Part shown: positions 5,017 to 64,000 of the stretch, one piece after another | Layout: every line of letters begins with the position of its first letter | How positions within the stretch are numbered: position 1 is the stretch's first letter | Assembly (NCBI GenBank): GCA_963767165.1 | Contig: CAVYCV010000008.1 | Coordinates: 118,182-182,181, forward strand | Length of the DNA stretch: 64,000 nt | DNA from: an uncultured Chloroflexia bacterium | GTDB taxonomy: Bacteria > Chloroflexota > Limnocylindria > Limnocylindrales > CSP1-4 | Reading direction: 5' to 3' | Notes under the pieces: generated by a model | Databases searched by the model: none | Told to the model about the DNA's origin: nothing | What the model saw: the letters and a program-made list of their open reading frames with translations, nothing else | Program-made: the position numbers and the translations under genes

Positions 5017-5082
5017 GCCGAGACCGACGCCGGTGTCCACGCGTCGCGAGCACGAACCGATGTGTCTGCTATCGTCCGCGCG

Positions 5083-7384: not shown

Positions 7385-7480
7385 CAGTAGGCCGTTCGCC
7401 CTACTTCGCTTGCCTGGGGGATCCGACTACGATCCCCTCGCCGAGGGCACCCGTGCGGCGGTCGCACCAGGAGTCGCATC

Positions 7481-11178: not shown

Positions 11179-11247
11179 GGCGCCGATGATAGTCGGGCCG
11201 ATGACGCGCATTTCGCACCGGTCGCGACCCGCCGCTACGATGCGCCG

Positions 11248-11952: not shown

Positions 11953-12003
11953 TCGCGGGCGACCGGCGCGGCAGACCGGGGAGCGGGATGGTACGGTGGG
12001 CTC

Positions 12004-13395
12004 GTGCCCCAGACAGCCCTGACGCCCGCGATCCGCGATGTCATCGCGCGACTCGGCCGGGCCGACATCATGGTCGGGATCCCGAGCTTCAAGAACGCGG
12101 CCACCATCGGCTACGTGGTTCGCGCCGCGCAGGCCGGCCTGGTCCAGTACTTCCCGGACCTCCGCCCGGTCGTCGTCAACTCGGACGCAGGCTCGCCCGA
12201 CGGCACCGGTCGCGTCGTCGTCGAGACCGAGCCGCCCGATTACGTCGAGCAGATCCTCCTCGTCCGGCCGAACCACAAGCTCGAGCGGGTCACCCTGACC
12301 TACCCCGAGATCGATGGCATCGGCGGCAAGGGCGCGGCGCTAAGGACCATCTTCGAGATCGCGGCGGCGCTCGAGGTCCAGGCACTGGTCGTCGTCGACA
12401 GCGACCTCCGCTCCATCGTGCCCGAATGGATCGAGTTGCTGTCCGGGCCGATCCTCAAGGGCGGCTACGACTTCGTGGCGCCGCTCTACGCGCGCTACAA
12501 GTACGACGGCACGATCACCAACACCGTCACCTACCCGCTGACCCGGGCGCTGTACGGACATCGCATCCGCCAGCCGATCGGCGGCGACTTCGGCGTGTCG
12601 GGCGACCTGGTCCGGCACTATCTCGAACTCGATGACTGGACGCCCGAGATCAGCAAGTTCGGCATCGACATCTGGATGACGACGTCCGCCGTGACCGCCG
12701 GGTTCGCCGTCTGTCAGACGCGACTCGGCGCGAAGATCCACGACCCGAAGGACCCGGGCTCGGACCTCGGGCCGATGTTCCGGCAGGTCGTCGGGACGAT
12801 CCTGCGGCTGGCCGACCGGTACGCCGACCACTGGCTGCCCATCACCGGCAGCCACGACGTGCCCGCGTACGGGTTCGAGCGGATCATCGAGCCGCCGCCG
12901 CTCGAGGTGAACACGCTCCGCCTCCTGTCCGAGTTCCATGCCGGCTCGCTGACGCTCGCGGACACGTGGCGGGCGATGCTCGCCCCGGCGACCGCGTCGA
13001 CGGTGATGGAGCTCGCGGCCGAGGCCGGGAACCTGGCCGATGTCGCGCGGACGAAGCTCGGGATCGGCGGTGACGTGTCGTCGACCACGGCGACCACCCT
13101 CGAGATGGCCGAGGCGGCCAGCTCGTTCCACTTTCCTGACGACCTGTGGGCCCGCGTCATCTACGACCTGGTGCTCTCGGCCCGCGGCGCCATCGCGGCC
13201 ACGGGCACCGGCCCGTCGCTCGAGACGCTCGTCGCGGCGCTGGTGCCGATCTACTTCGGGCGCGTCGGCAGCTTCGTCATCGAGAACCGGAACATCCCGA
13301 CCGACGCCGCCGAGGAACGGGTCGAGCGGCAGGCGCGCGAGTTCGAGCTGCTGAAGCCGTATCTCGTCGAGCGCTGGACGGCCGCAGCCGGATGA
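12004..13395 (+). CDS. GT2-type glycosyltransferase, glucosylglycerate/mannosylglycerate synthase-like
   Basis: VGIPSFKN, GKG.AL, VDSDLRSI.PEW, KYDGTITN, RQPIGGDFG, FGIDIWMT, HDPKDP. Confidence 0.8.
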   Translation: MPQTALTPAIRDVIARLGRADIMVGIPSFKNAATIGYVVRAAQAGLVQYFPDLRPVVVNSDAGSPDGTGRVVVETEPPDYVEQILLVRPNHKLERVTLTYPEIDGIGGKGAALRTIFEIAAALEVQALVVVDSDLRSIVPEWIELLSGPILKGGYDFVAPLYARYKYDGTITNTVTYPLTRALYGHRIRQPIGGDFGVSGDLVRHYLELDDWTPEISKFGIDIWMTTSAVTAGFAVCQTRLGAKIHDPKDPGSDLGPMFRQVVGTILRLADRYADHWLPITGSHDVPAYGFERIIEPPPLEVNTLRLLSEFHAGSLTLADTWRAMLAPATASTVMELAAEAGNLADVARTKLGIGGDVSSTTATTLEMAEAASSFHFPDDLWARVIYDLVLSARGAIAATGTGPSLETLVAALVPIYFGRVGSFVIENRNIPTDAAEERVERQAREFELLKPYLVERWTAAAG

Positions 13396-27680: not shown

Positions 27681-28722
27681 GTGACCGACGTCGAAAAGCG
27701 CGTTCGCAGCCTCGGGCCTCTGAAGCTCGCCATCGTCGTGCTCGCGCTCGTCGCGATGGTCGTGCCGGTCGTGGCCGTGATGGCCGCCTCACCCGACCCC
27801 TCGACCGACGCTTCGGCCAGCGCGGCGGCCGCCAGCGCGTCGCCTGAGAGCTCGGCGACGTCGAGTCCGGCTCCCGCCAGCTCGGCCCCGGCCGCCGCTC
27901 CCGAAGCGTCCGCCCCGAACGGGCTCAAGCCCGACGCCTCCAAGCCGTCCGTCAAGAACGATGGCCAGCCCGGGAACCTCCGTGGCTTCGGCGGTGGGCG
28001 TGGCTTCGGCGGCGTCACGATCGCGGCCATCGATGGTTCGAAGCTCTCGCTCAAGACCGTGGACGGCTGGACGCGCACGATCGTCGTCACAGCCGACACG
28101 ACCATCACCAAGGGCGGCCAGGCGATCAAGGTGGGCGACCTCGACGTCGGCGACACCATCGTGTTCCGCCAGAAGCGCAACGACGACGGCACCTACAGCA
28201 TCGTCGCCATCGTCGTCCCGACGCCGAAGGCCGCGGGCGAGGTGACCGCGCTGACGTCGTCGACCATGACCCTCAAGGGCCGCGGCGACAAGACGCGGAC
28301 GATCACGCTCACCGGCTCCACGATCTACACCCTGGGCAAGACCAAGGGCGCCAAGTCGGACCTCGCGGTCGGCTCGCGTGTCGTCGTCGAAGGCACCATC
28401 AGCGGCGACACCTTCACGGCCCTGAGCGTGCACATCGCACTGTCGAATGCGGCGGGCGAGGTCACAGCGAAGACCGCGAACACGATCACGGTCAAGGGCC
28501 GCGGCGGCAAGACCACGGTGATCCACGTCTCCTCGGACACGATGTTCAAGGTCCGGGGCAAGGACGCGGCGACAGCTCGCCGACATCGCCGTCGGCGATC
28601 GTGTCGAGGCGCAGGGCACGCGCCGCGCCGATGGGTCGCTCGACGCACTGACCGTCCACGGGCGAGCGCCGCACGTCAAGGACTCGACGAAGGCTCCCGC
28701 CGCCTCGGCCACGCCCGGCTGA
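27681..28722 (+). CDS. DUF5666-like repeat exported protein (frameshift near 28575)
   Basis: Signal anchor, three beta-barrel repeats (DLDVGDTI, DLAVGSRVVVEG, DIAVGDRVEAQG in another frame); stop at 28720-28722. Confidence 0.65.
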
Positions 28723-50877: not shown

Positions 50878-51080
50878 GATACAAACGGGCACATGTATCG
50901 GCTATCTCGAGGGGTGCCCGCCCGAGATCGCCCCGCGACGGTACACTCTCGCTCCGGCCGACATAGCTCAGTGGTAGAGCAGCTGTTTCGTAAGTCTCTG
51001 GCGCTTTGCGCAGTGCCACAAGCGTGGAAGCCCGACACAAACGGGCACACTTATCAGCTATTCGTTTCGAGGGGTGCCCG
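50878..51080. repeat. Imperfect ~45-bp direct repeats flanking the first tRNA half
   Basis: ACAAACGGGCACA..TATCRGCTAT..TCGAGGGGTGCCCG at 50881-50920 and 51037-51080. Confidence 0.85.
50957..50993 (+). tRNA. 5' half of tRNA-Thr(CGT), truncated after the anticodon loop (att site)
   Basis: GCCGACA-TA-GCTC-AGTGGTA-GAGC-A-GCTGT-TTCGTAA followed by unrelated sequence; TACACT -10 at 50942. Confidence 0.85.
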
Positions 51081-51400
51081 GCCTAGGACCACCCTATGGG
51101 TCGTTTCCACCGCGAGCCGACTCCAGCACTCGAGATCGTCTCACCTTCGGCCGTCAGGTCCATCATCCCCGACGCGAATCGCTCCCGACGAGCCGCGACG
51201 CGAGGGCGGTCAAGAGCGCGACCCGCGCTTATGAGCATCCATCAAGCTCGTGCAGTTTGGGCCGCGTTGTTAGGCTGTGATGCGATGCTGAGGCGTCGCG
51301 ATACCGCCGTCGTTGGGTCGACCCAGTGGTGGTATGACATTGCAGTTGCTAGCCATCTGGACCACTACTGGCGATGCTGGGGAAACAGGAGGAGGGTGTC

Positions 51401-51792
51401 ATGGGCAGACTGGCGTTGATCGCCGTGACGCTGCTCCTGGCTGCCTGCAGACAACCGCCACCACGCCGCCGGCCACAGTTGAATCCGAGCTGATCGGCAG
51501 CTGGCTCGCGACAACCGGTGATCCGACGGGCGTGATCGCTGCCTTCAACGACGATGGCACATTCACATGGAGCAATGGCAGTCTCAAGGGCACATATTCA
51601 GTCGATGGTGCGACCTTGAGCCTGTCCTTTCCCGACGACAGCGGCTATTGTCCAGGGGGAACATTGAATTGGGATTTCGATCTCAGCGGCGATACCCTGA
51701 CGTCTGACATCGTTGGAGCCTCTTGTCCCGGCGAGGCGCCGTTCGAGGGGGGCCCTCCGTCGTCGCCGGACTGGGTGTTCGAGAGGCAGTAA
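51401..51792 (+). CDS. Small lipoprotein (lipocalin-like beta fold), frameshift near 51460
   Basis: GGAGG RBS, MGRLALIAVTLLLAAC lipobox, LIGSW...FNDDGTF...GTYSVDG in the next frame. Confidence 0.6.
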
Positions 51793-52200
51793 CGCGCACG
51801 CTCGGCGAGCAGCGCGACAGGATCACCGAACGAACGACGGCTGGCTACGTGGGCACCGCCGCCGCGAGGCTGAGCACCTGCGCGCCGAGTCCATCCGCGT
51901 CGCACGGCCTGGGGCTGGCGTTTCCGGAAGGAGCCATCGTAGGGCGCCCGACGGGACTCGACCACTCAGATGCGTGGTCACTGTCACAGCAGGCCCGACA
52001 GGATCAAACTGCGAGATGCAATACTCATTCGAACGCCGATTTCGGAGCGGCGAATGCTTCACGACAATCGGGAGTGCCCGAACATCGCGGCGGCCAGATC
52101 GCAGGCGGCCGGCCGGCCGGAGTGCCGATCAAGTAGTCAACAGGTAGGAGCCGGAGGTCGGTCCGGTTCCTCGACGACTCGGCGATCGGGACGAACCGCG

Positions 52201-53646
52201 GTGCGACCCTCCGTGCCCTGTTTGTCTTGGCTGGTCGCCACGGTTCTCATGGGATGTGTCCCGATCGAGTCGTCGACACCACTGGCGTCGCCTACTGGGA
52301 GCAGCACAGCCATCGCCCCGGCAGACCGGTCGGCTGAGCCGTCGATCGATCCGGCGGTGGTCGGCGCAGAGGCCGGACACGATCCCTTGTTCCCGGCGCT
52401 GGGCAATGGAGGCTATGACGTCCGGACCTACGACATCGACGTCGAAACGAACCCAGTCGACGACCAAACGACGCTTCGAGTCATCATCGAGGCAGTCGCG
52501 ACCCAGCGTCTCGGCCGGTTCAGTCTCGATTACTCCGGGATCGAACCGGTGACCGTCAGTGTCGACGACGTCGCGGCGCCGTTCACCGAATCGGGCGGCA
52601 AGTTGGTAGTCACAATCCCACGACTCGTCGCGCCCGGTCACGTATTCCGGACCGTCATCGACATCGCTGGCCGTCCAGGCCCGGTTCGTGGCGACGGCTG
52701 GGCGTGGCGCGGCGCAGAGCAGCTGTCGGCGTTCGGAATCTACGACGCGGTTGGGACGTGGCTTCCGACGAATGCCGATCCGGCCGACAGGGCGCTCATC
52801 GAGACCCGCGTCACGGTGCCGCGTCCATACACGGCTATCGGCCCAGGGGTCCTCATCTCCGAGACCGATGTGGCGGGCGGCCGCGAGTTCGAGTGGCGTG
52901 CCGGACCGTCCAACCAGTTCTCGATCGTCGTCAGGGACTACGAGATCGTCGACCTCGGGGAGGTGGCCGGAGTCCGCTTGACGAGCTATGAGCCGAAGGA
53001 TCTACCGCCGCGACAGCGCGAGGCGCTCAACCGCGTTCCAACGATCTTCGAGTACCTGAGCGAGGTCTACGGGCCCTTTCCATTCGAATCGCTGAACATC
53101 GTCTGGATCGACGGGCTGTCCGACAGGGAGGGCCCGGACGAGGGCCTCCTCAAATGGGGCCCGCAGCGCCTCGACCCGAAGGCGCTCGCGCACCATCTGA
53201 CTCACATCTGGTTCACGGTGAACGTCACGCCGTCGACCGCGCGTGAGAGTTACCTGCGGGCTGCCTTCGCCAACTACGCCAACCTGCTGTGGACCGAGCA
53301 CAGTGATGGTGTCGCTGCCCGCGACGAAGTGATCGCCACGATGCACGCACAACTCGGGGCACGGACGGATGCTCCAGCCGACCCGTCGAGGGTCATCGAC
53401 AACAAGGCCCTGTACATTCGGGGCCCCCTGTCACTCCACGCGCTCCGTGTCATCGTCGGCGACGACACGTTCTTCGAGGTCCTCCGCACATGGGTCGTTC
53501 GCTACCATCGGCAGGCCGCGAGCGTCGATGACTTCGTTGATCTCGCAGAACAGGTGTCCGGGCGCTCGCTGGAATCCTGGCGACAGCGCTGGATCCTCGA
53601 CGAGGTCGTTCCCCCGCTGAGCGACCTGGGCCTCGGCGCCGGCTGA
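52201..53646 (+). CDS. M1 aminopeptidase-like lipoprotein with altered zinc motifs
   Basis: LMGC lipobox, DPLFPALGNGGYDV..Y, Y.RGPL.LHALR..VGDD.FF; HHLTH in place of HExxH. Confidence 0.75.
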   Translation: MRPSVPCLSWLVATVLMGCVPIESSTPLASPTGSSTAIAPADRSAEPSIDPAVVGAEAGHDPLFPALGNGGYDVRTYDIDVETNPVDDQTTLRVIIEAVATQRLGRFSLDYSGIEPVTVSVDDVAAPFTESGGKLVVTIPRLVAPGHVFRTVIDIAGRPGPVRGDGWAWRGAEQLSAFGIYDAVGTWLPTNADPADRALIETRVTVPRPYTAIGPGVLISETDVAGGREFEWRAGPSNQFSIVVRDYEIVDLGEVAGVRLTSYEPKDLPPRQREALNRVPTIFEYLSEVYGPFPFESLNIVWIDGLSDREGPDEGLLKWGPQRLDPKALAHHLTHIWFTVNVTPSTARESYLRAAFANYANLLWTEHSDGVAARDEVIATMHAQLGARTDAPADPSRVIDNKALYIRGPLSLHALRVIVGDDTFFEVLRTWVVRYHRQAASVDDFVDLAEQVSGRSLESWRQRWILDEVVPPLSDLGLGAG

Positions 53647-53963
53647 TCTAGCAGGGCATTGCGATCGGGCCGACGGGGTCGCCTGCCCGGATTTCGACGC
53701 CGCTGCCTCTTGAGCATGAGATGTCCGAGTGTCAACTATCGGGGATCGCCGGCGAGCGATGCGAGCCCGTTGTCAGAGCGGGCGTTCCAATGAGCGATGG
53801 GCGACGCGCGTCCCGGCCATGCTCCGATTCGTCCAGCATGACGCGTCGTATGCAGGACGCCGGCTGACCGATCCGGAAGCGCTCGCGATGGTCAGCGCGC
53901 CGGATCCCGGGTAGCGATCGCGTTCCCGGGCGCCTACGATCCCGACAACAAGGAGGTGCGCCG

Positions 53964-55610
53964 ATGGCGATCGAGCAGCAGCGGACGTCGGCCCCTATCG
54001 CCGGCAACGCAGGATCGGGTCTCCTCGAGTCTCACGACCCCGCCACTGGTCAGCTCATCGGCACGGTGGCCGTCACGCCGCCGGACGAGGTCCAGCGGAT
54101 CGCCGAGGAGGTCGCGATGGTCCAGCGCGAGTGGGGGGAGCGACCGCTGGCCGAGCGGGCGGCGGTCATCCGGCGAGCGGCGAACATCCTCCTCGAGCGC
54201 AGCGACGAGATCGCCCGGGCTGTCACGCGCGAGACCGGCAAGACGCTCACCGAGGCGACCGTCGTCGATGTCGGAGCGCCGGCGATGGTCCTGGAATGGA
54301 TCGGCGGGCACGGCTATCGGGACCTCGCGCCGGAGCGCCTCCGGACGCCGCAGCTCCTGCTCAAGCACAAGCGGGAATGGCTCCTCTTCGAGCCACTCGG
54401 GGTGATCGGCGTCCTCTCGTCCTGGAACTACCCGGTCCTTGTCCCGGCCGGTCCGCTCGGGATGGCCCTCGTCGCTGGCAATGGCGTCGTGTTCAAGCCG
54501 TCGGAATACAGCCCGTTCGTCGGTGAGCTCCTCGCCGAGGTGTTCCGCGAGGCCGGCGTGCCCTCCGGCGTCCTGCGCGTCGTCCACGGTGGTGCGGCCA
54601 CAGGCGCGGCCATATGCACGGCGTCGTCGGTGGCGAAGATCTGCTTCACCGGTAGTGTCGAGGTCGGGATGGAGGTCATGCGCCTCGCCGCCGAGCATCG
54701 GAAGCCCGTCATCCTCGAGCTGGGCGGTAAGGACGCGGCGATCGTGTGCGCCGATGCCGACCTCGACCGGGCGGTCGGCATCACGGTCTGGGCGGCGATG
54801 GCTGGCGCCGGCCAGACGTGCGCCGGCGTCGAGCGCGTCTACGTCGACCGCCGCATCTACAACGAGTATCTCCGTCGAGCGGTCGCGTTGGCCGTCAAGC
54901 TGCGGCCTGGCGACCCCAACGACCCGACGACGCAGATCGGCTCGCTTAGCACGGAGGCCCAGTTCCAGCGCGTCGTCGCCCACCTCGACGACGCCGTCGC
55001 GAAGGGCGCCCGGATAGAGTGCGGCGGTCCGGTGCGCGTCGACGACTTGACCGGCTGGTTCATCGCGCCGGTCGTCCTCACTGGCGTGAACCACTCGATG
55101 GCGGTCATGCGCGAGGAAACGTTCGGGCCCGTCCTGCCGGTCATGTCCTTCGACTCCGAAGATGACGCGATACGGCTCGCCAACGACTCGAGCTACGGCC
55201 TTGGCGCGAGCGTCTGGTCGCGCGACATCGGCCGCGCCCGCCGTCTCGCCCGGCGCGTGGAAGCGGGCATGGTCTGGATCAACGACCACGCGTATTCCGC
55301 GGCGGCCGGCCAGGCGCCCTGGGCGGGGATGAAGAATTCGGGACGGGGCGTCATCCACTCTCGGTTCGGGCTCTTCGAGATGGTGCACAAGCGGCTCATC
55401 TCCGAGGATCGAGGCTGGCTTCCGCTGCCCTGGTCATACCCCTACGACGAGGCACGGCGGCGCGGATTCATTGCCCTCCTGCGGGCCGTCTACGCGCCCG
55501 GGATCGTCGCCAAAGCGCGCCGGGCCTGGACCGATCGGATTGCGCTGATGGCGTTCGCTCGGGGCCTGATCGCCTCGCGCACCCGGCTACGGGGCCGCCG
55601 TCAGCGATAG
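53964..55610 (+). CDS. Aldehyde dehydrogenase family protein
   Basis: WNYP, KPSE, FTGS, LELGGK, GQTCAG, EETFGP; AGGAGG RBS. Confidence 0.95.
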   Translation: MAIEQQRTSAPIAGNAGSGLLESHDPATGQLIGTVAVTPPDEVQRIAEEVAMVQREWGERPLAERAAVIRRAANILLERSDEIARAVTRETGKTLTEATVVDVGAPAMVLEWIGGHGYRDLAPERLRTPQLLLKHKREWLLFEPLGVIGVLSSWNYPVLVPAGPLGMALVAGNGVVFKPSEYSPFVGELLAEVFREAGVPSGVLRVVHGGAATGAAICTASSVAKICFTGSVEVGMEVMRLAAEHRKPVILELGGKDAAIVCADADLDRAVGITVWAAMAGAGQTCAGVERVYVDRRIYNEYLRRAVALAVKLRPGDPNDPTTQIGSLSTEAQFQRVVAHLDDAVAKGARIECGGPVRVDDLTGWFIAPVVLTGVNHSMAVMREETFGPVLPVMSFDSEDDAIRLANDSSYGLGASVWSRDIGRARRLARRVEAGMVWINDHAYSAAAGQAPWAGMKNSGRGVIHSRFGLFEMVHKRLISEDRGWLPLPWSYPYDEARRRGFIALLRAVYAPGIVAKARRAWTDRIALMAFARGLIASRTRLRGRRQR

Positions 55611-56096
55611 CCCGGCGTGCTCCTCCACGGGTTCCAGCGACTAGGGACCAACGGCCGTCGAGCTCCGCGGCGGTCGTCCGAGCCGCGCCGTGGGCGGCAG
55701 CGGTGAGCTCATCGAGGGGAGTAGCCTGCTCGCTGCCGCACGGCCGGGAGACCCTCGGCCTCTGGCGGTTCGGCGATCGATGGTTGGAGCGGTCCGAGAG
55801 GCCAGACCGAGGCTACCTTTGCCTCCGCGTCAGCGCCACCTCTCCGCGATCGCTCGCTGGACCTGGACCACCTCCAGCGGTCAGCCCGGACCTTCGATGC
55901 GCTCGCCGACGAGATTGGCGGTGCCAGGTACCCGACGGCTACCTTCGTGCAATGGTGTGTCCCCGCAGATCTCGTACTCCCAGATGAGCCTCCCTTTCCG
56001 GACAAGAGGTGTTGTCATCCGGGTAGGAGAACGTCAGCGTCGCCCGTCGGCTTCGTAGGTGCCATGGGTCGGCGTCGCATCTGAGGTCCCTGACGG

Positions 56097-56879
56097 TCAT
56101 CGGGACACGGCAGACGGCCAGTCGAGGGCAACCTGGTTGATGGCGCGATCCACCTCGCCAAGCTCCAGTGCACGTCCGGCCCGCACGGCAGCCCCCGCCC
56201 GGTCGTAGAGGTCCTTCAAGAGCTCCCGTCCACCGCTCTGCCAGATCCCAATGGCTGCGGCGTGCAGACGCAGCTCGAACCAGCCGTAGTTCACGCCGCG
56301 AGCCTCGGCCATCTCGTCGATCGCCGCGTGCGACATGCGCTCCGGGCGAATGTGGCTCGCCGCGAGAGGGAACGTCTGGAGAGCGGGCCGGGTCGCCGGC
56401 TCGACCTCGGCGATATAGCCCTCAAGGGCGATGTTGCAATACAGCTCGTTCAGCCACCACCAACCGAAATCGAACCCTGCCTGGGCGTGGTACAGGTGTG
56501 CCAGCTCATGCAGCGACAGCAGATCGACGAACGGGCGGACCAGTGGTGGGTTCCCGTACACCGCGTGGAAGGTCGCCCGCAGTTCGTCGGGCATGTCCTC
56601 GACCGTGAGGTCGACGAGGTCGCCGAACAGGTCCGCGTACGTTGCGGCCACCTAGATCGTGCCGTCATCCCCGAAGTGGGGCATGCCATATATCGGCTGT
56701 CGGGTACGTTCAGCCCAGTCGCCAGGCGCCAGCACATCGAGGGTCAGGCGCGGGGTGAAGCCCAGCAGATCGGTCATCCAGCTCCGGGCCCCGTCGGTCC
56801 GTGCGGCAATGTCACGGGCCGTTTGGTCGGCACCGTCCGAGTAGTTGACCACGAATGGAACGTGGCGCAGCGTATGCAT
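56097..56879 (-). pseudogene. Gluzincin-like metallopeptidase interrupted by an in-frame TAG at 56652-56654
   Basis: Two collinear same-frame ORFs; GGAGG RBS; LHELAH...WLNE. Confidence 0.65.
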
Positions 56880-57498
56880 TTGGTCCTCCCGTCGCCGAGC
56901 GTTTGCTGGCGGACTGGCTGGCGGAAGCCGAACGGCTGGTGACGTCCTCCCGATTCGATGACGGGAGCGAGCGTCACTGCGCGGCCCGGATGCGCGATTC
57001 CCGCCGACCTCAGTGCGAGACCGGCGCCCCGCTAGCCGGCAGATGACGTTGCCCGAGCGCGTTCGGCTCCTTGCGTGGGTTCGTCCGGACAGTCTAGAAG
57101 TTGCCGTCCCAGCTATCGGCGCATGTCCAGCCCGTTATCCGTCGACCGCGTCCGCGACGATCCCTTCGCCTGGTGCGATCCACGGGCTCGGTTACCAGGG
57201 TGCTCATCAGGGTTGCTCATGGGGCCGTCTGCAGGCGACGCTGGCATCCGGTCGGGACGCTGCTCGCATAGCGTACGGGACAGCAGCCCGACTGCCGCAA
57301 GTCGGTCGCTACCCGTGGAAAGGTGGCTGCTGTACATCGGGACCGCGTCACCGGCCATCGGCGGTGTCGCGCTGGGCATCGGCCTCCTGACGGCCGCCAG
57401 ACGCTGATCGCCGCCCTGCCGGCAGCGTGTTCGACGTGGTCGCGAGCCTTGAAGCACCGATCATCGGGGTGGGATCGCATCGCTCGTACACTTCACTG

Positions 57499-58899
57499 AT
57501 GGACCGGAGACGTCGTCCGAACATCCTGTTCATCATGTCCGACGATCACGCGACACAGGCGGTGAGTGCCTACGGCTCGCGCCTCAACGAAACCCCGCAG
57601 ATCGATCGCATCGCCTCCGGCGGCATGCGCTTCGATGCGTGCTACTGCACGAACTCGCTCTGTACCCCGTCTCGGGCGACGATCCTGACCGGCACCTACA
57701 GCCATGTCAACGGCGTCACGACGCTGGACACGCCGTGGGACGCTCGCCAACCAACGTTCATAACGGCCCTGGGATCGGCCGGCTACCGATCGGCGGTGAT
57801 CGGCAAGTGGCATCTCGGCCATGGCGGGATCCATGATCCGCACGGCTTCGATGACTGGATCGTTCTGCCGGATCAGGGGGAGTACTCCGATCCGCAGTTC
57901 CTGACGGCGCGCGGCCCGCGACGCATCAGCGGGTATGTGACCGATGTCATCACCGATCTCGCGATCGACTGGCTCGGGCGCCGAGACCCGGAGCGACCGT
58001 TCTGCCTCCTCGTGCACCACAAGGCGCCCCATCGATCGTGGGAGCCGGACGAGCGCCACGATGGGATGTATGGCGAGGCGATACTGGAGGTGCCGGCCAG
58101 CTTCGGCGATGACCATGCTGGCCAGGCGCTCGCCGCATCCGAGGCACGGATGACGATGGCAGAGCTCGGCCCGACGGATCTGAAGGCTCCGATCCCGCCC
58201 GGTCTCGACCGCGTCGCCGAGGATCGCTGGCGCTGGCGACGGTTCATCGAGGACTACCTCGCCAGCGTCGCGAGCATCGACGACAACGTCGGCCGTCTGC
58301 TCGACTGGCTCGACACGGCGGGGATCGCGAACGACACGATCGTCGTGTACACGAGCGATCAGGGGTTCTTTCTCGGCGAACACGGCTGGTTCGACAAGCG
58401 GTTCATGTACGAGGAATCGATCCGCATGCCGCTGCTCATCAGGTACCCGCCCGAGATCCCGGCCGGCAGCGGCACGGATGCGATGGTCCTCAACCTCGAT
58501 TTCGCCCCGACGTTCTGCGACCTGGCGCGCGTTCCGATCCCGACATCCATGCAGGGCCGTTCGATCCGACCCCTTCTTCAGGGAGAACAACCGGACGATT
58601 GGCGCACGAGCATGTACTACCGATATTGGATGCATCTCGACTCGGTGCACCGTGTCCAGGCGCACTACGGCGTGCGGACGACCCGCTTCAAGCTGGTGCG
58701 CTACCCGGGCACCGGAGCAGGTGTCCCCGGCGCATCGCCGGAAACGCGGACCCCGGAGTGGGAGCTCTTCGACCTCCAAGCGGACCCCTTCGAGCTCAAG
58801 AGCGTTTACGAGGATCCCGCCTATGCCCGCAAGGTCGACGACCTGACAGCGGAGCTGGCGCGACTTCGGGCCGAATATCTGGACGATCCGCCGGGCTGA
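57499..58899 (+). CDS. Sulfatase (formylglycine-dependent)
   Basis: PNILFIMSDDH, CTPSRATILTG, GKWHLG, YTSDQG, DKRFMYEES. Confidence 0.95.
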   Translation: MDRRRRPNILFIMSDDHATQAVSAYGSRLNETPQIDRIASGGMRFDACYCTNSLCTPSRATILTGTYSHVNGVTTLDTPWDARQPTFITALGSAGYRSAVIGKWHLGHGGIHDPHGFDDWIVLPDQGEYSDPQFLTARGPRRISGYVTDVITDLAIDWLGRRDPERPFCLLVHHKAPHRSWEPDERHDGMYGEAILEVPASFGDDHAGQALAASEARMTMAELGPTDLKAPIPPGLDRVAEDRWRWRRFIEDYLASVASIDDNVGRLLDWLDTAGIANDTIVVYTSDQGFFLGEHGWFDKRFMYEESIRMPLLIRYPPEIPAGSGTDAMVLNLDFAPTFCDLARVPIPTSMQGRSIRPLLQGEQPDDWRTSMYYRYWMHLDSVHRVQAHYGVRTTRFKLVRYPGTGAGVPGASPETRTPEWELFDLQADPFELKSVYEDPAYARKVDDLTAELARLRAEYLDDPPG

Positions 58900-59079
58900 C
58901 AGGCCAAGCGCATCGCCGCGCCGCACCGCGCCGCGCGGCGCCAGAGAGCGCGCGGATTCGCCGAATGAGTCGAACGCGACCAGCGACCAACGTGCTCGAC
59001 CTCGACAGGGGTCGACCGGCCGCCGTACTGCTGCCGACAAGAGGATCGAAGTCGGGACGGCAGGCGAGTACAACCGGAC

Positions 59080-59330
59080 CTTCGCCGCAAGCTGGGCGAA
59101 GGCGAAGGCGCCGACGGGGGGCGACGATGATCCAGTCGGTCTACGAGGAGATCGTCGTTCGCGGAGAGGAGTCGTCAGCGTCCGCCTCACGCCGGAAACG
59201 TATGCCAATGGCCTCGCGCTCGCTCTGCTGCCGAGGTTGTGGTTCCAGCCCTTCCGACCTGGGGCGGGGCGCGGCGGGGATCAAATATGGCATTGGCGCG
59301 CCCGACAGGAGTCGGACGTGCAACGCAGGG
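59080..59330 (+). pseudogene. Probable C-terminal remnant of a site-specific recombinase, running over a tRNA 3'-end-like sequence
   Basis: With indels reads IQSVYEEIVV..VSVRLTPETYANGLALALP..ALARPTGVGRA; the minus strand at 59294-59317 is GTCCGACTCCTGTCGGGCGCGCCA. Confidence 0.4.
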
Positions 59331-59528
59331 CCCAGAAGCGCGCGAGTCGTCGAGCGCGAAACGGCGCCAGGTATCGAACGAGCGTTCTGAAGTCCGTGAG
59401 GAGGTCCGCGTCGCGCCCTTACAGTTATCAGCTATTCAGGCGCTATGCAGCGAGTCGGGCTCGGTACCGAACGTCCCCGCATGCGCCCGAAAGCTGATGC
59501 TCTTGAGCATCGGCTATTCTTGATCGGC

Positions 59529-59565
59529 GCCGACATAGCTCAGCGGTAGAGCAGCTGTTTCGTAA
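59529..59565 (+). tRNA. Second 5' half of tRNA-Thr(CGT) (attL of the integrase element)
   Basis: Identical to 50957-50993 except one D-loop base; ends at TTCGTAA; TATTCT -10 at 59515. Confidence 0.85.
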
Positions 59566-59637
59566 TGAGCTTCCGTGCTTGAGCTCCCGCAGTCTCGTGC
59601 GCAGAAACAGCAGTCCTAGGCCAGGCAGGACTATCAG

Positions 59638-59659
59638 ACCCCCCACATAAACCCCCCAC
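59638..59659. repeat. ACCCCCCAC direct repeat (13-bp period); putative integrase arm-type sites
   Basis: Lies between the att core and the integrase start. Confidence 0.55.
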
Positions 59660-59677
59660 CGTGGTAGCGTCCCGTGC

Positions 59678-60919
59678 ATGGCTCGACGAGGGCAGCGCAA
59701 TCCTAGAGGGGCCGGGACCGTCTACGAACGCGTGGATCGGCCCGGGACCTGGGTGACCGAGATCACGGTCGGCGGCAAGCGAAGACGCGAGCACTATTCG
59801 AGCAAGGAACTTGCCCGAGCTGCCCTTGAGAGGCTGGCGAGGGGCGCGGCGGATCAGCCTAGACCGGAGTCCTTGGGCGCCTGGTTGACGCGGTGGGCCG
59901 AGACGATCGCCCCTGGGCGTGTGGAACCAAAGACAGCGCAGACCTACGCCTCCATCATCCGCAATCAATGGCTGCGACACGAGATCTGTAAGGCCCCGAT
60001 CGCTGCGGTCGAGCCGGAGCAGATCGAGGATGCGCTAGTCGACTTGATGGCCACGGGGCTCAGTCGCACGACCGTTGGGCACGCTCGCGCCGTTCTGTCG
60101 GCGGCCTACACAGCGGCGATCCGGGCCAAGCTAGTGATTGCCAACCCGGTGCCGGGGGCTCGGCTGCCTGGCCGCCCGACCACACCGCGTGTGCGCCAAA
60201 TGCGTTTCTCAGAGGACGTCTATCGGCAAATCAGCGACGCGGTGGCGGACCACCCGATCCGACCTTTCGTCGAGCTGATTGCCAGGATGGGTCTGCGGCC
60301 TGGTGAGGTCCTCGCCCTGCAGTGGCGCGATGTCGATCTCGCCGGTCTGTTGATCTACGTTCGCCAGGCGGTGAAACAAGTGGGCACGGGTTGGGTTGTC
60401 GGCCCGCCTAAGACCGCCCTCAGCGCGCGCGACGTGCCGATGCCCGTTGAGCTGCGCCCGATCCTGTTTCAGCTCCGCGACCGTCAACACAAGCCGCCGG
60501 AAGATGCTTGGGTGTTCCCTTCGCCGTTCTCTCCCGGTCAGCCGGACAATCCGGTTCGGATGGCGAAGGCTTGCAGGCCGATCTTCGACGCTGCCGGCCT
60601 ATCGGGCTGGACGCCGCGGGACCTGCGTAGCCTGCACGCCTCCATCTTGCTAGGACAGAACGTGGATGTCGTCACCGTGTCGCGTCGGCTCGGGCACTCA
60701 GATCCAACGACCACATTCAGACGCTATGCCGGAGTGGTTACCGGTACCGACCGTCGAGCCGCTGATGGAATGCGGATGTGGGGGCATCCGCGAAGGCCGA
60801 AGGCTGGGGACTCGGAACACGATCACGTCGACGACGCTCCTGTGAAGAGCCCGACCAAGAAGCGAGCCCCGGGCGCATCGCACGCGGCAGGCGAGCGAGA
60901 GGCGAGTGCGATTTGGTAG
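59678..60919 (+). CDS. Tyrosine recombinase/integrase
   Basis: RGAGTVY N-terminal arm domain, GLRPGE.LAL.W.DVD, PKT, RDLR, LGHS, Y in FRRYA. Confidence 0.93.
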   Translation: MARRGQRNPRGAGTVYERVDRPGTWVTEITVGGKRRREHYSSKELARAALERLARGAADQPRPESLGAWLTRWAETIAPGRVEPKTAQTYASIIRNQWLRHEICKAPIAAVEPEQIEDALVDLMATGLSRTTVGHARAVLSAAYTAAIRAKLVIANPVPGARLPGRPTTPRVRQMRFSEDVYRQISDAVADHPIRPFVELIARMGLRPGEVLALQWRDVDLAGLLIYVRQAVKQVGTGWVVGPPKTALSARDVPMPVELRPILFQLRDRQHKPPEDAWVFPSPFSPGQPDNPVRMAKACRPIFDAAGLSGWTPRDLRSLHASILLGQNVDVVTVSRRLGHSDPTTTFRRYAGVVTGTDRRAADGMRMWGHPRRPKAGDSEHDHVDDAPVKSPTKKRAPGASHAAGEREASAIW

Positions 60920-61013
60920 CTGGCCGGCAAGGCGGACCAACCATCCAATCGGATGACGGGCGGGATGACCCCTTCATGGCAGCGTCGCCGGCACGGCGGG
61001 CGAGGCTGGAGGC

Positions 61014-61088
61014 TGGAGCCGCCTCAGGGATTCGAACCCTGGACCTGCGGTTTACGAAACCGCTGCTCTACCACTGAGCTAAGGCGGC
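61014..61088 (-). tRNA. tRNA-Thr(CGT), intact, CCA encoded
   Basis: GCCGCCT/AGGCGGC acceptor, GCTC/GAGC D-arm, GCGGT-TTCGTAA-ACCGC, CAGGG-TTCGAAT-CCCTG, TCCA; 75 nt. Confidence 0.95.
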
Positions 61089-61097
61089 GGGGTGCTG

Positions 61098-61147
61098 GAG
61101 GGCCGTTTACGAAACGGCTCTCGCTCTGCCGTCTAAGCTAAGGCATC
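61098..61147 (-). ncRNA. tRNA-Thr-like 5' half with a complete anticodon stem-loop, directly upstream of the intact tRNA
   Basis: GATGCCT-TA-GCTT-AGACGGCA-GAGC-GAGA-GCCGT-TTCGTAA-ACGGC-CCTC; no T-arm. Confidence 0.6.
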
Positions 61148-61232
61148 GCAGGCCGAAGTCTACCGAAGGACCGTGCGTATCCTCGATCGCTGAATTCGAG
61201 GACGAGCTCACAAGCAATGAGGCCGTGCTGGG

Positions 61233-61737
61233 TCACGCAGCCAGCATCCCGAGCCCCTCGAACAGGTGCTCTGTCAACTCCTCGCAGTAGACGTCTTCCG
61301 CCATCTGTCGCCCATTGATGCGGATGACGTAGGTGTCGTCCGACCGCAGCCAGATTTCGACACGGCGCCCGCCCTTGGCGACGAAGGCCAGACCGGCTCC
61401 GCCCGGGTCTCCGCAATCGCAGGGGAGGACCTCGTAGTCCCCAGCCCCCATGAGGTCGAACGCGCTCCCGCCGCGCATTCCGGCCTCGATCTGGCTCGCG
61501 ATGATTTTGAGCGTCGGCACAGCGAGTGGGGAAGCCGGGCAGGGCTGCGGTAGGCGGCTTCTCGAGCCACCCCTCTGCTACCTCGGGAGTCCCATCGGTG
61601 TCCGGGCGCGGGAACGAAGAACGCCCTAGTTCGGTGAGGTTCACCATGCCCTGCGGCCCGAAGGCCATCACGGGCTTCCCCTCGCGGATCGCCTTCACCA
61701 CGAAGTCGGGCAGGTCGTCCTCTCGGTTGTCCGGCAT
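61233..61737 (-). CDS. Hypothetical protein (probably one gene with a frameshift near 61530)
   Basis: Protein-like N-terminal part in ORF 61138..61737 and C-terminal part in ORF 61233..61520. Confidence 0.4.
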
Positions 61738-61762
61738 TGCCGACTCGATGGCGATGCGGAGA

Positions 61763-62098
61763 TCACCGCGCTTGGCCGCCTGGCGGACCCTGAACTGAAC
61801 CTGCCAGTCGCCGATGAATGATCTCGAAGAGACCCGTCGACCGGGCTCTTTGCCCAGCCAGGCGTGGCCCGCAGCTCGTTGGCGGCACGTGCGGCGAGAT
61901 GTGCGAGGTCGAACGCGACCGTTTCGACGGTGTAGCCCTTGCCCTCAGGGTCCTGATCGCGCCATTGAGGCGTTGGCCTCTGGAGAGGCCGTTGCGATCC
62001 ACTCGTTCGATTTGCGCCCAATCGGCTGTCTTGACGACCAGCCGGGCGTTGCCGAGAACTTGAGCGGTGAGCTTCCGATTGATTGCATAGGCGAGCAT
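61763..62098 (-). CDS. Hypothetical protein (possible frameshift near 61950)
   Basis: AGGAGG RBS; protein-like reading continues in ORF 61695..62021. Confidence 0.45.
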   Translation of the reverse strand: MLAYAINRKLTAQVLGNARLVVKTADWAQIERVDRNGLSRGQRLNGAIRTLRARATPSKRSRSTSHISPHVPPTSCGPRLAGQRARSTGLFEIIHRRLAGSVQGPPGGQAR

Positions 62099-62509
62099 CA
62101 GGGGTGACCTCCTGTGGCCGCTGATTTGGCGGCTCTAAACGTCTCTACACACCCCGGTGCCCAGTTGTCTGAACGACCGGTTGGCCATCTAGCTGGGGCG
62201 TGCTTGACCGGTCGGGCGGAATGCGCTTTGGACCCTTTCGGGCGCGTGCTTGTAGGGACCTGGCAATGTGGCCACCTCACGGGTGGATCCGGGTCCCGCG
62301 GGGTCTCCCGCGTCGCTCCCGATGAACTTCATGTTCAAACCACGGGGTCAGTGGCGCAACCGACAGCGGCCCATCTGATGGTCCTGCCGGCCAGCCCAGA
62401 CGAATGGCGAGACCCAAGGTCGACCCGCAGGCGAGCCCGTGCCGATCGCCTCTGACTCGACAGAAGTCCGGTTCACGCCTCCGGACGCCATCGGGGACCT
62501 TGGGCTGCC

Positions 62510-63151
62510 ATGGCGGCTTTCGGGAGTCGCCTTGAGCGTGACCGACGTTGCGCGCCGAGCGTCGCGCAACGTGGCGAACGCTTGACCTATCGCTTCACGG
62601 ATGGCGAGTGTTGGCCATGCTTCAAAGACTCGCAGCCGCCCGCTCTGCCGCCCGACATGCCCCTAGCCGTCGCCGATCGGGACGGCTTCACCGTCTTTTC
62701 GCTGGGCGCGACTGTGGGTGATGCTGCAGCCGCGAGCGGCGCGAACGAGGTGACCTCCCGCCGTTGGGTGGCCAGCGAACGGGCGTTCCAGCGGCGGCTC
62801 TGGACGTCGCCACCTGTACCCGCTTGGGCCGCGGTCCTCCTACCGCCTGAGCCCGCTCCTCACCCGGCGGCGTCGCCCTCCGACGGCGAGGCACAGAACC
62901 TGCGCCGCCTGTTGATTGCCCTCGACGCGTCGCGATTTGAGCGGACTCCCCTCTCGATCCGTGCGCGCGACTGGGCGGCCGGGCGGCCAGGATTGGGTAA
63001 GCGATGGGCGGATAGCGCTTTGGTTCGCCTCGGCGACCTAGGGGTGTTGACCAAGGTGCCTGGGATCAGACGCTTGCCCACCTGGCATCTTCCGACGCGG
63101 GACGAGGCCCTTCGGCGGCTCGATGACGCGTTCAACAAGCGGGAGGACTGA
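62510..63151 (+). CDS. Hypothetical protein
   Basis: Longest ORF in the interval; start uncertain. Confidence 0.35.
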   Translation: MAAFGSRLERDRRCAPSVAQRGERLTYRFTDGECWPCFKDSQPPALPPDMPLAVADRDGFTVFSLGATVGDAAAASGANEVTSRRWVASERAFQRRLWTSPPVPAWAAVLLPPEPAPHPAASPSDGEAQNLRRLLIALDASRFERTPLSIRARDWAAGRPGLGKRWADSALVRLGDLGVLTKVPGIRRLPTWHLPTRDEALRRLDDAFNKRED

Positions 63152-63290
63152 CCGCAACCTTGGCTCCTGCTCGCCCAACGCGGCTCCGCAGGTCATTGCC
63201 ACTTGACATCGGTTTGAAGAAACCGAAGCTCCGCCGTCGCCCGCTGGTGAGCGACCGAGAACCTGGTCGTAACACCGGCGGAGCCAGCCG

Positions 63291-63680
63291 ATGGCCACAG
63301 TCATTTTGGAGCGACCAACCCCGGCGGGCAATGAGGCTGACCCAACGCCCGCATTCAACCGACCGGCCTACTGGTACGTGCGCGGGACCGACAATCTCCC
63401 ATCGGCGGATCGGGCGGCGGCGGATCCGGACCCCATAGTCCGGGTCAAGCTGTTTGACCCCCAGGGAAGCTGGTCGTGGTACCTGGCCGGATACGACCCT
63501 AACCGGCGGCTTGCCTTCGGCGCAGTCGACGGGTGGGAGTTCGAGGTCGGCGATTTCTGGATGCCGGAGCTCACGGTTCTGCGCGGCAAGCTCCTGGCGG
63601 CTTGCCCCTCGAACGCGAACTCGACTTTGAGCCCCGCCGCCTCTCGCTACTCCTGCCGGCAGGCTCGAAACGACCGGTAG
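63291..63680 (+). CDS. DUF2958-like protein (probable frameshift near the 3' end)
   Basis: DPIVRVKLFDP.GSWSWY...LAFGAVDG.EFEVG.F...EL; LPLERELDFEP continues in another frame. Confidence 0.7.
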   Translation: MATVILERPTPAGNEADPTPAFNRPAYWYVRGTDNLPSADRAAADPDPIVRVKLFDPQGSWSWYLAGYDPNRRLAFGAVDGWEFEVGDFWMPELTVLRGKLLAACPSNANSTLSPAASRYSCRQARNDR

Positions 63681-63730
63681 GACAGTGGGCCTCGGGCCCG
63701 ACGAGGATGCTCATTGCATTAGTTGGGAAA

Positions 63731-63988
63731 TCAACCTCCGAGCCCGCCGGCGGCGGGCTGGGCGAACCGAGCCTCGGCGGTGTTCAGGTCAATGATCCCG
63801 AAGCCTGCCTTGCCGTCGAGGTCGAGCGGCGAGACGGCCAAGAAGTGGCCTCGCAGGTCGCGAGCCAAGACCGCGACCATCACCGTTTCACCTGGCCTCA
63901 CGAGCAACTTGAGCTCGTGTCCGACGACCACCCATCGCTGCTCTGCGCAGTAGCGAAGGGCGTCGTACGGAGTGAGCGTCGCGGTCAT
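63731..63988 (-). CDS. Hypothetical protein (85 aa)
   Basis: GAGG RBS, protein-like composition. Confidence 0.45.
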   Translation of the reverse strand: MTATLTPYDALRYCAEQRWVVVGHELKLLVRPGETVMVAVLARDLRGHFLAVSPLDLDGKAGFGIIDLNTAEARFAQPAAGGLGG

Positions 63989-64000
63989 GAGACCTCGAAG

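What the first reader, a model, noticed from the sequence alone, without database searches (positions are those of the whole stretch)
59529..61147. Integrase element that splits tRNA-Thr(CGT) at the anticodon and carries its own divergent replacement tRNA-Thr(CGT)
Seen: the tRNA at the left junction stops after TTCGTAA and is not restored. A tyrosine integrase starts 112 nt later. 94 nt past its stop, on the opposite strand, lies a complete tRNA with the same anticodon but different acceptor (GCCGCCT vs GCCGACA) and anticodon (GCGGT vs GCTGT) stems. Known: most tRNA-targeting integrases restore the target with an attP-borne 3' fragment; 5'-half duplications are rarer (described for example in tycheposons). 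Inference: a break-and-replace strategy, in which the element supplies an isoacceptor for the frequent ACG codon whose altered stem may escape the integrase and may make the element costly to lose.
Basis: partly seen in the sequence, partly recalled or inferred. Interest (0 to 1): 0.8.

Follow-up and report, generated by a model that had tools for sequence, protein, structure and literature searches.

The report
Integrase element carrying a spare tRNA-Thr
A mobile element has cut into a threonine tRNA gene at its anticodon loop and carries its own working copy of that tRNA; in related bacteria this copy has replaced the host gene, though here the host gene survives elsewhere.

Summary
A host-type ('H') 5' half of tRNA-Thr(CGT) ends at TTCGTAA (59529-59565). 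A tyrosine integrase starts 112 nt later. A complete tRNA-Thr(CGT) of a second allele ('S', GCCGCCT acceptor) lies 94 nt past its stop on the minus strand.

This module (5' half, arm with two ACCCCCCA repeats, int, S tRNA) recurs in all 7 loci found with an integrase at least 47% identical. The S gene is absent from 70 congeners, so it came with the element.

'Not restored' holds only inside the window. An intact H gene lies at C6:14061-14135, at the end of an array of displaced 5' halves built by other, integrase-less cassettes. The far end of this element is not assembled.

In relatives, break-and-replace is visible. In G119, G154 and G245 a severed H 5' half sits 18-19 nt before a complete S gene (G096 keeps a partial piece). 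The right junctions of G119, G154 and G010 carry three ACCCCCC repeats and a defective 5' part. Ten of 13 S-carrying genomes show no intact H gene.

The mechanism has a precedent, tRNA-dependent lysogeny of actinobacteriophages (mBio 2024). This is a new variant: Chloroflexota, no phage genes seen, 5' half retained. Dependence on the S tRNA in this genome is not shown.

The parts
50957..50993 (+). First displaced host-type 5' half of tRNA-Thr(CGT), positions 1-37 with one mismatch; left edge of the island array
50994..59293 (.). Integrase-less cassette E1 ('family X'): M1-peptidase-like, aldehyde dehydrogenase and sulfatase genes. Its left end is 87% like the sequence after the C6:9397 half and like two places in G005
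59294..59528 (+). Right arm of the family X cassette. Together with the next part it is 100% identical over 272 bp to C6:9162-9433. It holds the last 76 codons of a serine-recombinase-like ORF and ATC(A/G)GCTATTC motifs
59529..59565 (+). Host-type 5' half (1-37) ending in the anticodon loop TTCGTAA: the left junction (attL) of the integrase element
59566..59677 (+). Element arm (P' arm), conserved in 6 loci. It has two direct ACCCCCCA repeats at 59638-59645 and 59651-59658, a pair found nowhere else in the 3.5-Mb assembly
59678..60919 (+). Tyrosine integrase, 413 aa, catalytic residues intact
61014..61088 (-). Complete element-borne tRNA-Thr(CGT), S allele, convergent with int
61089..61147 (-). 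18 nt (61089-61106), loop TTCGTAA (61107-61113) and a degenerate tRNA 5' part (61114-61147). The spacing from loop to tRNA is the same as at the severed-half junctions of G119, G154 and G245. With 59529-59565 it brackets int as an inverted repeat
61157..61162 (-). TAGACT, a -10-like hexamer about 10 nt before the degenerate 5' part. It matches the TAGACT motif that precedes the S tRNA in 4 other module loci
   Evidence: reading of the sequence; promoter function inferred
61148..64000 (.). Cargo of the element, running on to the contig end (window-equivalent 65775): small ORFs without family, DUF2958, and a frame-broken GmrSD_C-like gene at the contig end. No match in 40 congeners

Best explanation
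Window 59529-61147 is the left end of an integrated mobile element. Its lambda-type tyrosine integrase recombines inside the 7-nt anticodon loop (TTCGTAA) of tRNA-Thr(CGT). At this junction the 5' half of the target is left in place. It is followed by the element's arm (two ACCCCCCA arm-type repeats), then int, and just past int on the other strand a complete, functional tRNA-Thr(CGT) of a second allele (S). S is also the allele found at the native position in some genomes of the same family. This element lineage works by break-and-replace. Neither junction rebuilds the target, because the arm at the far junction carries only a defective 5' part. The element's own tRNA takes over ACG decoding. 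This is the principle of tRNA-dependent lysogeny. In this genome, however, the element landed in one of several displaced 5' halves of an island array built by other, target-restoring cassettes. The host allele is therefore still intact on contig C6, and the S tRNA is at present a second copy. Shown: the anatomy, its conservation, the foreign origin of S, its cloverleaf covariation, the intact host gene, and the replaced state in relatives. Inferred: that the module's integrase made these junctions, that the far end here resembles those of G119, G154 and G010, that S is expressed, and that the target here was a non-functional half.
For: Anatomy. Conservation: a host-type 5' part (1-37 to 1-45) lies about 115-130 nt before int in 6 of 6 close loci with upstream sequence; the S tRNA lies 60-100 nt after int in 6 of 6 with downstream sequence. 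There are 7 distinct loci with integrase 47-65% identical, from 3 genera plus metagenomes. Sequence left of the half is unrelated between loci, while the 112 nt to its right is conserved with the two repeats. In G150 the left flank is syntenic with the native upstream flank of the intact gene in three congeners. S is foreign here: 0 of 70 congeners carry it, and the 4.6 kb beyond it matches none of 40 congeners. S is a real tRNA: 100% of 231 cells pair in the cloverleaf, 10 pairs show compensatory change, and 0 of 500 shuffles reach this. Break-and-replace in relatives: G119, G154 and G245 have a native-looking -10, then the H 5' half, then 18-19 nt, then a complete S gene. Orphan H 3' halves lack a 5' part in G245, G096 and G119. 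No full-length H gene was found in G154, G245, G096, G152, G223, G280, G291, G316 or G119, nor in G179. Right junctions in G119, G154 and G010 have three ACCCCCC repeats 27-45 nt before a defective 5' part, and ARAGORN calls no tRNA there in G119 or G010. No such arm exists in the G000 or G150 assemblies. So the intact H genes there are not this element's far junction. The one in G000 is preceded by a family X arm. Precedent: PMC10865867.
Against: The far end of this element is not assembled: C8 ends 4.7 kb past the tRNA, and no contig overlap was found. Whether it rebuilds the target is therefore unseen for any module-bearing locus. Both well-assembled module genomes, G000 and G150, do hold an intact H gene with a non-native upstream flank. 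A restoring element would give exactly that, and G150 shows no orphan 3' half. The relatives with the severed-half-plus-S junction have no integrase nearby, and S there is on the same strand as the half, unlike here. Linking them to this module rests on the shared S allele, the shared ACCCCCC repeat and the shared 18-19 nt spacing. In G010 the left copy is H-type, so some elements with this arm type restore the target. In G223, G280 and G291, S sits directly behind the native-looking upstream motif with no scar, so S may simply be their native allele. Most genomes are MAGs 59-97% complete, so 'no intact H gene' may be a gap. No expression or recombination data exist.
Confidence: 0.55

Rival explanations
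1. Restoring element with a spare tRNA. The element carries a good 5' half and promoter at its unseen right end, so it rebuilds the host gene like the neighbouring family X cassettes and the G092 element. The S tRNA is then accessory cargo: extra ACG decoding, or a relic of a former attachment site kept by drift or mild benefit.
For: Intact H genes exist in G000 (C6:14061) and G150 (C25:10688). In G150 it is preceded by 10.7 kb of mobile-type genes (type I R-M, FtsK/SpoIIIE), while the native upstream flank sits at the int junction. G150 has one displaced 5' part, one intact gene and no orphan 3' half, which is the signature of one restoring event. 5'-side restoring elements clearly exist in this order: G092 has a 5' half, 7.8 kb and then an intact tRNA with a 38%-identical int beside it. 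Eleven of 30 relatives have orphan 5' halves ending at the loop, by my count of rows.
Against: No ACCCCCC arm lies before the intact genes of G000 or G150. The three arms of this type that were found all carry defective 5' parts. A strictly conserved, covarying same-anticodon tRNA beside int in 6 of 6 loci is hard to explain as neutral cargo. In 10 of 13 S-carrying genomes no intact H gene was found.
Confidence: 0.27
2. Invertible cassette. In this window int and the S tRNA are bracketed by two inverted half-tRNA sites (59529-59565 and 61102-61147), each with a TTCGTAA loop. Int could flip the 1.5-kb segment. That would place either int or, 18 nt behind the severed half, the S tRNA under the promoter that precedes the 5' half. 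This would be a switch between 'integrase on' and 'tRNA on'.
For: Inverted repeats I1 (38 nt, 89%) and I7 (13 nt, 92%, loop to loop) bracket the cassette. After such a flip the left junction would read 5' half, loop, 18 nt, S tRNA, which is exactly the geometry seen in G119, G154 and G245 (18-19 nt).
Against: Only 1 of 6 module loci (this one) has the second loop before the S tRNA; the others have a promoter-like TAGACT motif there. No locus shows the flipped state with int still present. No reads were available to look for both orientations.
Confidence: 0.08
3. The complete tRNA is simply the native host gene, and int a canonical neighbour that restored its 3' end.
For: More distant homologues (28-35% identity) lie convergent with a target tRNA (Leu, Pro, Gln, Ser, Glu; Thr in G115) at similar spacing. 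S occupies the native position in G223 (PspA-TPM flank).
Against: The S allele occurs in 0 of 70 congeners. The H allele is the one shared at 96-100% by congeners. There is no displaced S 3' half in the genome. The flank beyond S is strain-specific. The conserved junction is on the other side of int.
Confidence: 0.03

Closest known systems
tRNA-dependent lysogeny of actinobacteriophages (Guerrero-Bustamante and Hatfull, mBio 2024, PMC10865867; abstract and sections 5, 10, 11 read)
   Same: A tyrosine integrase recombines at an attB inside a host tRNA gene. [quoted passage not shown] In phage Gaia that tRNA lies downstream of int. The system has evolved more than once among relatives that do restore the target.
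   Different: There the elements are temperate phages of Actinobacteria, the crossover lies in the 3' half with an 8-17 bp core, and dependence was shown by genetics. Here the host is a Chloroflexota lineage (record titles of L043 and L044). No phage gene was seen and no close integrase occurs in IMG/VR (best 30%). The break is in the anticodon loop with the 5' half retained next to int. The incoming tRNA is a second allele of the same bacterial family. Dependence is not shown, and in this genome the host gene is intact.
Integration into the 5' part of a tRNA gene (Zhao and Williams 2002, J Bacteriol 184:859). I saw it only as a citation in PMC6563490; the paper itself is not held
   Same: The displaced fragment is the 5' part rather than the usual 3' part. 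[quoted passage not shown]
   Different: From recall, that class supplies promoter and 5' part and so restores the gene. That fits the neighbouring family X cassettes and the G092 element; for the int module here it is unproven and, by the arms seen in relatives, unlikely.
Tycheposon-type island growth at tRNA genes (Hackl et al. preprint 10.1101/2020.12.28.424599; passages read)
   Same: Successive elements and remnants are stacked at one tRNA and separated by partial tRNA copies. The cargo is niche and defence genes, and many units lack an integrase.
   Different: Different hosts and different tRNAs. No test was made of the tycheposon recombinase clade or its replication genes. That work describes no element-borne same-anticodon tRNA in the passages I read.

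Membership tests
Tyrosine recombinase / phage integrase (PF00589) | Catalytic domain with the R..K..(H/R)xxR..H..Y residues | tested here: met
   PF00589 at 2.9e-16 over residues 177-351; phrog_1 at 7e-64; R207, K245, R314, R317 and Y350 invariant and H340 in at least 90% of 17 sequences. Assigning these columns to the catalytic roles is my reading.
Lambda-type integrase with arm-type sites | Repeated arm sites flanking the core on both sides, and an N-terminal arm-binding domain | tested here: inconclusive
   Two ACCCCCCA repeats lie 72-93 nt right of the loop, conserved in 5 of 6 loci with a variant in L044. Three repeats lie left of the loop at the right junctions of G119, G154 and G010. 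Binding is not tested. The N-terminus gives only a weak PF14659 hit (0.03).
tRNA-dependent lysogeny / break-and-replace integration | attB overlaps a host tRNA gene | tested here: met
   The junction lies at the end of the anticodon loop of tRNA-Thr(CGT) in 6 of 6 loci.
tRNA-dependent lysogeny / break-and-replace integration | [quoted passage not shown] | tested here: met
   tRNA-Thr(cgt) beside int in 6 of 6 loci; cloverleaf fully paired.
tRNA-dependent lysogeny / break-and-replace integration | Short common core, so that no functional tRNA is rebuilt at either junction | tested here: inconclusive
   The left junction rebuilds nothing. The far junction of this and every other module-bearing locus is unassembled. 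Right junctions with the same repeat in G119, G154 and G010 have defective 5' parts.
tRNA-dependent lysogeny / break-and-replace integration | The disrupted host tRNA is otherwise single-copy, so the cell depends on the element's tRNA | tested here: not met
   In this genome an intact host-type gene stands at C6:14061-14135. In relatives G119, G154, G245 and G096 the S gene is the only full-length copy found.
tRNA-dependent lysogeny / break-and-replace integration | The element is a temperate phage | tested here: not met
   No PHROGs hit other than integrase among 12 ORFs of the element. The best IMG/VR integrase relative is 30% identical. Relatives carry R-M, PD-Lambda-5, FtsK/SpoIIIE, a D5-like fragment and a TnpB. 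Only 4.7 kb of the element is assembled here.
Target-restoring 5'-side tRNA integration | The element supplies the 5' part (and promoter) that regenerates the gene at its far end | tested here: inconclusive
   Met for the neighbouring family X cassettes: the intact gene at C6:14061 is preceded by their arm. Also met for G092. Not seen for the int module.
Tycheposons | Specific recombinase clade plus replication hallmark genes | not tested
   Only the array architecture was compared.

The most novel reading that the evidence does not exclude
The int-tRNA cassette is a self-flipping unit. It is bracketed by two inverted half-tRNA sites, so after integration the integrase can invert it. That parks the incoming S tRNA 18 nt behind the severed host 5' half, where it inherits the host's tRNA promoter, and turns int away from that promoter. 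Loss of int then fixes the state seen in G119, G154 and G245. Integrative elements would in this way drive replacement of a single-copy tRNA allele across a bacterial family.
Probability: 0.1. Interest if true: 0.85.

Novelty: new variant of a known kind. Interest (0 to 1): 0.6.

Why it matters
tRNA genes are the commonest landing sites of mobile DNA, and the textbook rule is that the element repairs what it cuts. The exception, cutting a tRNA and bringing your own, was shown by genetics only in 2024 and only for actinobacteriophages. Here the same logic appears in an uncultured Chloroflexota lineage, in elements with no phage genes seen, at a different place in the tRNA.

It also has an evolutionary consequence visible in genomes. 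Two alleles of tRNA-Thr(CGT) circulate in one bacterial family. In several genomes the incoming allele sits behind the stump of the old gene and is the only copy found. If this holds, mobile elements can turn over a single-copy translation gene and make themselves, or their remnants, indispensable.

The concentration of compensatory change in the anticodon stem of the mobile allele gives a testable hypothesis. The stem may be selected to avoid the integrase, or to avoid anticodon nucleases.

Tried and rejected
1. Joining contig C8 to C6. No k-mer overlap of the C8 end with any contig end. The frame-broken GmrSD_C-like gene at the C8 end is not continued at the C6 start, which holds a LuxR-like ORF. 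Adjacency stays open.

2. Reads. No public run holds more than 0.10 of the sampled words of window 59300-62300. No evidence on orientation, excision or population mixture.

3. Finding the element's far arm by its repeat. The CCCCCC pair occurs once in G000, and only at the int junction in G150. The triple repeat is absent from G000, G150 and G179.

4. Conserved cargo. tblastx of the 6.2 kb from the junction to the contig end against 8 loci gave nothing beyond the S tRNA.

5. The 385-aa ORF before the intact tRNA of G150 and the 450-aa ORF after S in G245 were tested as hidden integrases. No blastp match to either integrase and no Pfam hit.

6. The downstream flank of the tRNA in G150's congeners is not conserved next to G150's intact gene, so synteny could only fix the left side.

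7. A phage origin of S. The 26-mer occurs once in IMG/VR, as a 5' half with a TTTGTAA loop in an unrelated 50%-GC contig.

8. PADLOC and NCBIfam gave nothing for the cargo ORFs here.

9. The Zhao and Williams paper is not held. Supplementary tables of the papers were not seen; those of PMC10865867 (att site figures) might bear on how short a core still counts as non-restoring.

10. I searched the library with 'tycheposon', 'reverses the usual target / integrative genetic element', and 'attP, integrase, complete tRNA gene, anticodon loop'. I found no paper on this lineage, but these three searches do not show that none exists.
Full report
**What is in the window**

ARAGORN finds one tRNA-Thr(cgt) at 61014-61088 on the minus strand, and Rfam scores it 74.3 bits. 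The plus strand at 59529-59565 reads as positions 1-37 of another tRNA-Thr(CGT), ends with the loop TTCGTAA, and is followed by unrelated sequence. A 413-aa ORF (59678-60919) begins 112 nt later and ends 94 nt before the tRNA. It is a tyrosine recombinase: PF00589 at 2.9e-16 and phrog_1 at 7e-64, with the catalytic Arg, Lys, Arg, His and Tyr columns conserved in an alignment of 17 homologues.

On the minus strand this is a decayed tRNA 5' part with its own stem-loop (GCCGT-TTCGTAA-ACGGC). Its loop ends 18 nt before the complete tRNA.

**The host gene is not lost**

The window is C8:118182-182181 of a 9-contig, 3.53-Mb, 70%-GC assembly. Genome-wide ARAGORN finds a second tRNA-Thr(cgt) at C6:14061-14135. 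Its first 37 nt are identical to the fragment in the window. I call this host allele H and the one beside int S.

The H 5' half occurs four times, each copy ending at TTCGTAA: C8:169138 (window 50957), C8:177710 (window 59529), C6:9397, and within the intact gene. One orphan 3' half (positions 31-75) lies at C6:14592.

The segments between the halves carry ordinary cargo and no integrase. These are an M1-type peptidase, aldehyde dehydrogenase and sulfatase in one, and PIN/Phd, TetR and a PEP-utilising enzyme in another. They share left ends and right arms with each other and with arrays in congeners G005 and G017. I call them family X.

The arm before the window's half is a family X right end. 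Together with the half it is 100% identical over 272 bp to C6:9162-9433. It contains the last 76 codons of an ORF that weakly resembles the C-terminal part of a large serine recombinase (phrog_95 at 5.8e-12; PF07508 at 0.034).

So the tRNA-Thr(CGT) locus is an integration hot spot with stacked units, as described for tycheposon islands. By my count of the rows, 11 of 30 relatives have orphan 5' halves ending at the loop, and 3 more have shorter or ambiguous pieces.

**The module is conserved and mobile**

Protein searches found 14 relatives at 47-91% identity in metagenomes. In genomes of the order, only G150 (62%) and G179 (51%) were close among 201 sampled. Scans of species-representative genomes and of JGI metagenomes added L045, L123, L124 and L125. 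L043 and L044 are the same places as the G150 and G179 loci and are counted once.

- In 6 of 6 loci with upstream sequence, an H-type 5' part (1-37 to 1-45) lies about 115-130 nt before int.
- In 6 of 6 loci with downstream sequence, a complete S tRNA lies on the opposite strand just past int.
- Left of the half the loci are unrelated. Right of it the 112 nt up to int are alignable and contain two direct ACCCCCC(A/G) repeats. That pair occurs once in the whole G000 assembly.
- Beyond the S tRNA nothing is shared between loci.
- The 4.6 kb beyond it here matches none of 40 congeners.
- In G150 the flank left of the half is syntenic with the upstream flank of the intact gene in three congeners.

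The boundary of the element is thus the anticodon loop, and the element extends rightwards through int and S.

More distant homologues (28-35%) lie convergent with other tRNAs in the usual way. The int-to-tRNA arrangement therefore looks inherited from a canonical ancestor.

**S is a working tRNA and a family allele**

Twelve sequences (nine S, three H) form the cloverleaf in 100% of 231 cells, with 10 pairs changed on both sides. None of 500 shuffles reaches this, and slid controls pair at 35-52%.

The nine S sequences aligned are seven distinct ones: S_G000 differs from S_G316, and S_G150 from S_L123, only at loop column 58. They differ in the three middle pairs of the anticodon stem, with five alleles: GCGGT, GGGCT, GTTCT, GTGGT and GTTGT, each with its complement. 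They also differ at three pairs in the T stem, all in G096, and at two loop positions.

The exact S 26-mer occurs in 13 of 401 genomes of the order, in 7 genera, and in 0 of 70 congeners of G000.

**What the other S carriers show**

Int lies beside S only in G000, G150 and G179. The remaining carriers fall into these states:

- G119, G154 and G245: reading along one strand, there is a -10-like TAnnnT 11 nt before the H 5' half (positions 1-33 or 1-37), then 18-19 nt, then the complete S gene.
- G096 has a partial version and G224 a decayed one.
- G223, G280 and G291: S follows the same upstream motif directly, in the native PspA-TPM neighbourhood.

A full-length H gene was found in G224 but not in G154, G245, G096, G152, G223, G280, G291, G316 or G119, nor in G179. 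These assemblies are 82-92% complete. Orphan H 3' parts without a usable 5' part lie on other contigs in G245 and G096, and 1.4 kb downstream in G119.

The right junctions of G119 and G154, and one in congener G010, read as follows: three ACCCCCC repeats, 27-45 nt, a defective 5' part, the loop, and the 3' half. ARAGORN calls no tRNA there in G119 or G010. This is the repeat of the window's arm, so these junctions belong to the same recombination system. At least in G119 the system did not rebuild the H gene.

The unit in G119 (1.5 kb) carries a PemK-type toxin gene.

**How I read it**

The lineage practises what Guerrero-Bustamante and Hatfull named tRNA-dependent lysogeny: cut a tRNA gene, do not repair it, bring a cognate tRNA. 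The window shows the version in which int faces away from the severed half and S lies behind int.

In this genome the element sits behind a half that is the end of a family X cassette. The intact H gene is rebuilt by another family X arm, and no ACCCCCC arm exists anywhere in the assembly. So the far end is missing from the assembly, and nothing shows that a working gene was broken here.

The restoring alternative cannot be excluded. G000 and G150 both keep an intact H gene with a non-native upstream flank, and G150 has no orphan 3' half.

I put break-and-replace for the lineage at about 0.55 and a restoring element with a spare tRNA at about 0.27.

**An unexplained symmetry**

In this window alone, int and S are bracketed by inverted half-tRNA sites (I1 and I7). 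The distance from the second loop to S (18 nt) equals that at the severed-half junctions of G119, G154 and G245. A TAGACT lies about 10 nt before the decayed half, as before native genes.

Either the module once sat in that other geometry in a former host and took the stump along, or the cassette can be flipped by its own integrase. No flipped copy with int was found, and no reads were available.

**Limits**

- Nearly all genomes are incomplete MAGs.
- Absence of an H gene, of arms or of int is absence from assemblies.
- The link between the int module and the int-less junctions is by shared allele, repeat and spacing.
- Promoters are read by eye.
- No supplement was seen.

Noticed in passing
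window 50957-59528; L002 (G000:C6) 9397-14060: Integrase-less 'family X' cassettes are stacked at the tRNA. They share left ends (about 87% identity) and right arms that carry ATC(A/G)GCTATTC motifs. The same ends occur in congeners G005 and G017. What mobilises them is unknown.
   Followed up: partly
window 59294-59565 = L002 9162-9433: A 272-bp exact repeat lies on two contigs with different left flanks. It contains the 3' end of a 366-aa ORF (L002:8291-9391) resembling the C-terminal part of a large serine recombinase (phrog_95 5.8e-12; PF07508 0.034). The ORF ends 5 nt before the tRNA half.
   Followed up: partly
L002 14592-14636: An orphan 3' half (positions 31-75) of the host tRNA lies 456 nt downstream of the intact gene. 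It and the roughly 90 nt before it are conserved in G004 and G005, suggesting a third, 3'-side element family at the same loop.
   Followed up: partly
window 27900-27991 (-): ARAGORN calls a 92-nt tRNA-Lys(ctt), but Rfam gives no match at E up to 1 in 27700-28200. It is probably a false call. Several other over-long ARAGORN calls occur genome-wide.
   Followed up: partly
L001 19260-19955 (C8 end, beyond the window): A GmrSD_C-like gene is spread over three frames on the minus strand and runs off the contig end. It is either a pseudogene or carries assembly indels.
   Followed up: no
L245 (G119:C36) 2907-3601: The 1.5-kb int-less unit that brought the S tRNA into G119 carries a PemK/MazF-type toxin gene (5e-20) behind a small upstream ORF.
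   Followed up: partly
L123 2262-4825: In a metagenome copy of the module, the genes after the S tRNA are a PD-Lambda-5 defence pair (A 9.3e-93, B 6.8e-97). They are followed by a second tyrosine recombinase and a D5-like fragment.
   Followed up: no
L235 (G096), L229-L231 (G291, G280, G223): Mosaic alleles occur. G096 combines the S acceptor with the H-type T arm. G223, G280 and G291 combine the S acceptor and T arm with the H-type anticodon stem of their genus. This hints at recombination between the two alleles.
   Followed up: no
L304 5763-5799 (IMG/VR contig): An unrelated 50%-GC viral contig holds a tRNA 5' half identical to S over 26 nt but with loop TTTGTAA (Thr-UGU type). It stops at the loop, with a distant integrase just upstream. 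This looks like another 5'-half junction at an anticodon loop.
   Followed up: no
L205 (G092:C21) 65-8020: This is a complete 7.8-kb 5'-side element in a small-genome relative. It consists of a displaced 5' half, an MmeI-type restriction enzyme, an integrase (38% identical to the window's) divergent from the tRNA, and the rebuilt tRNA. It carries no second tRNA.
   Followed up: partly
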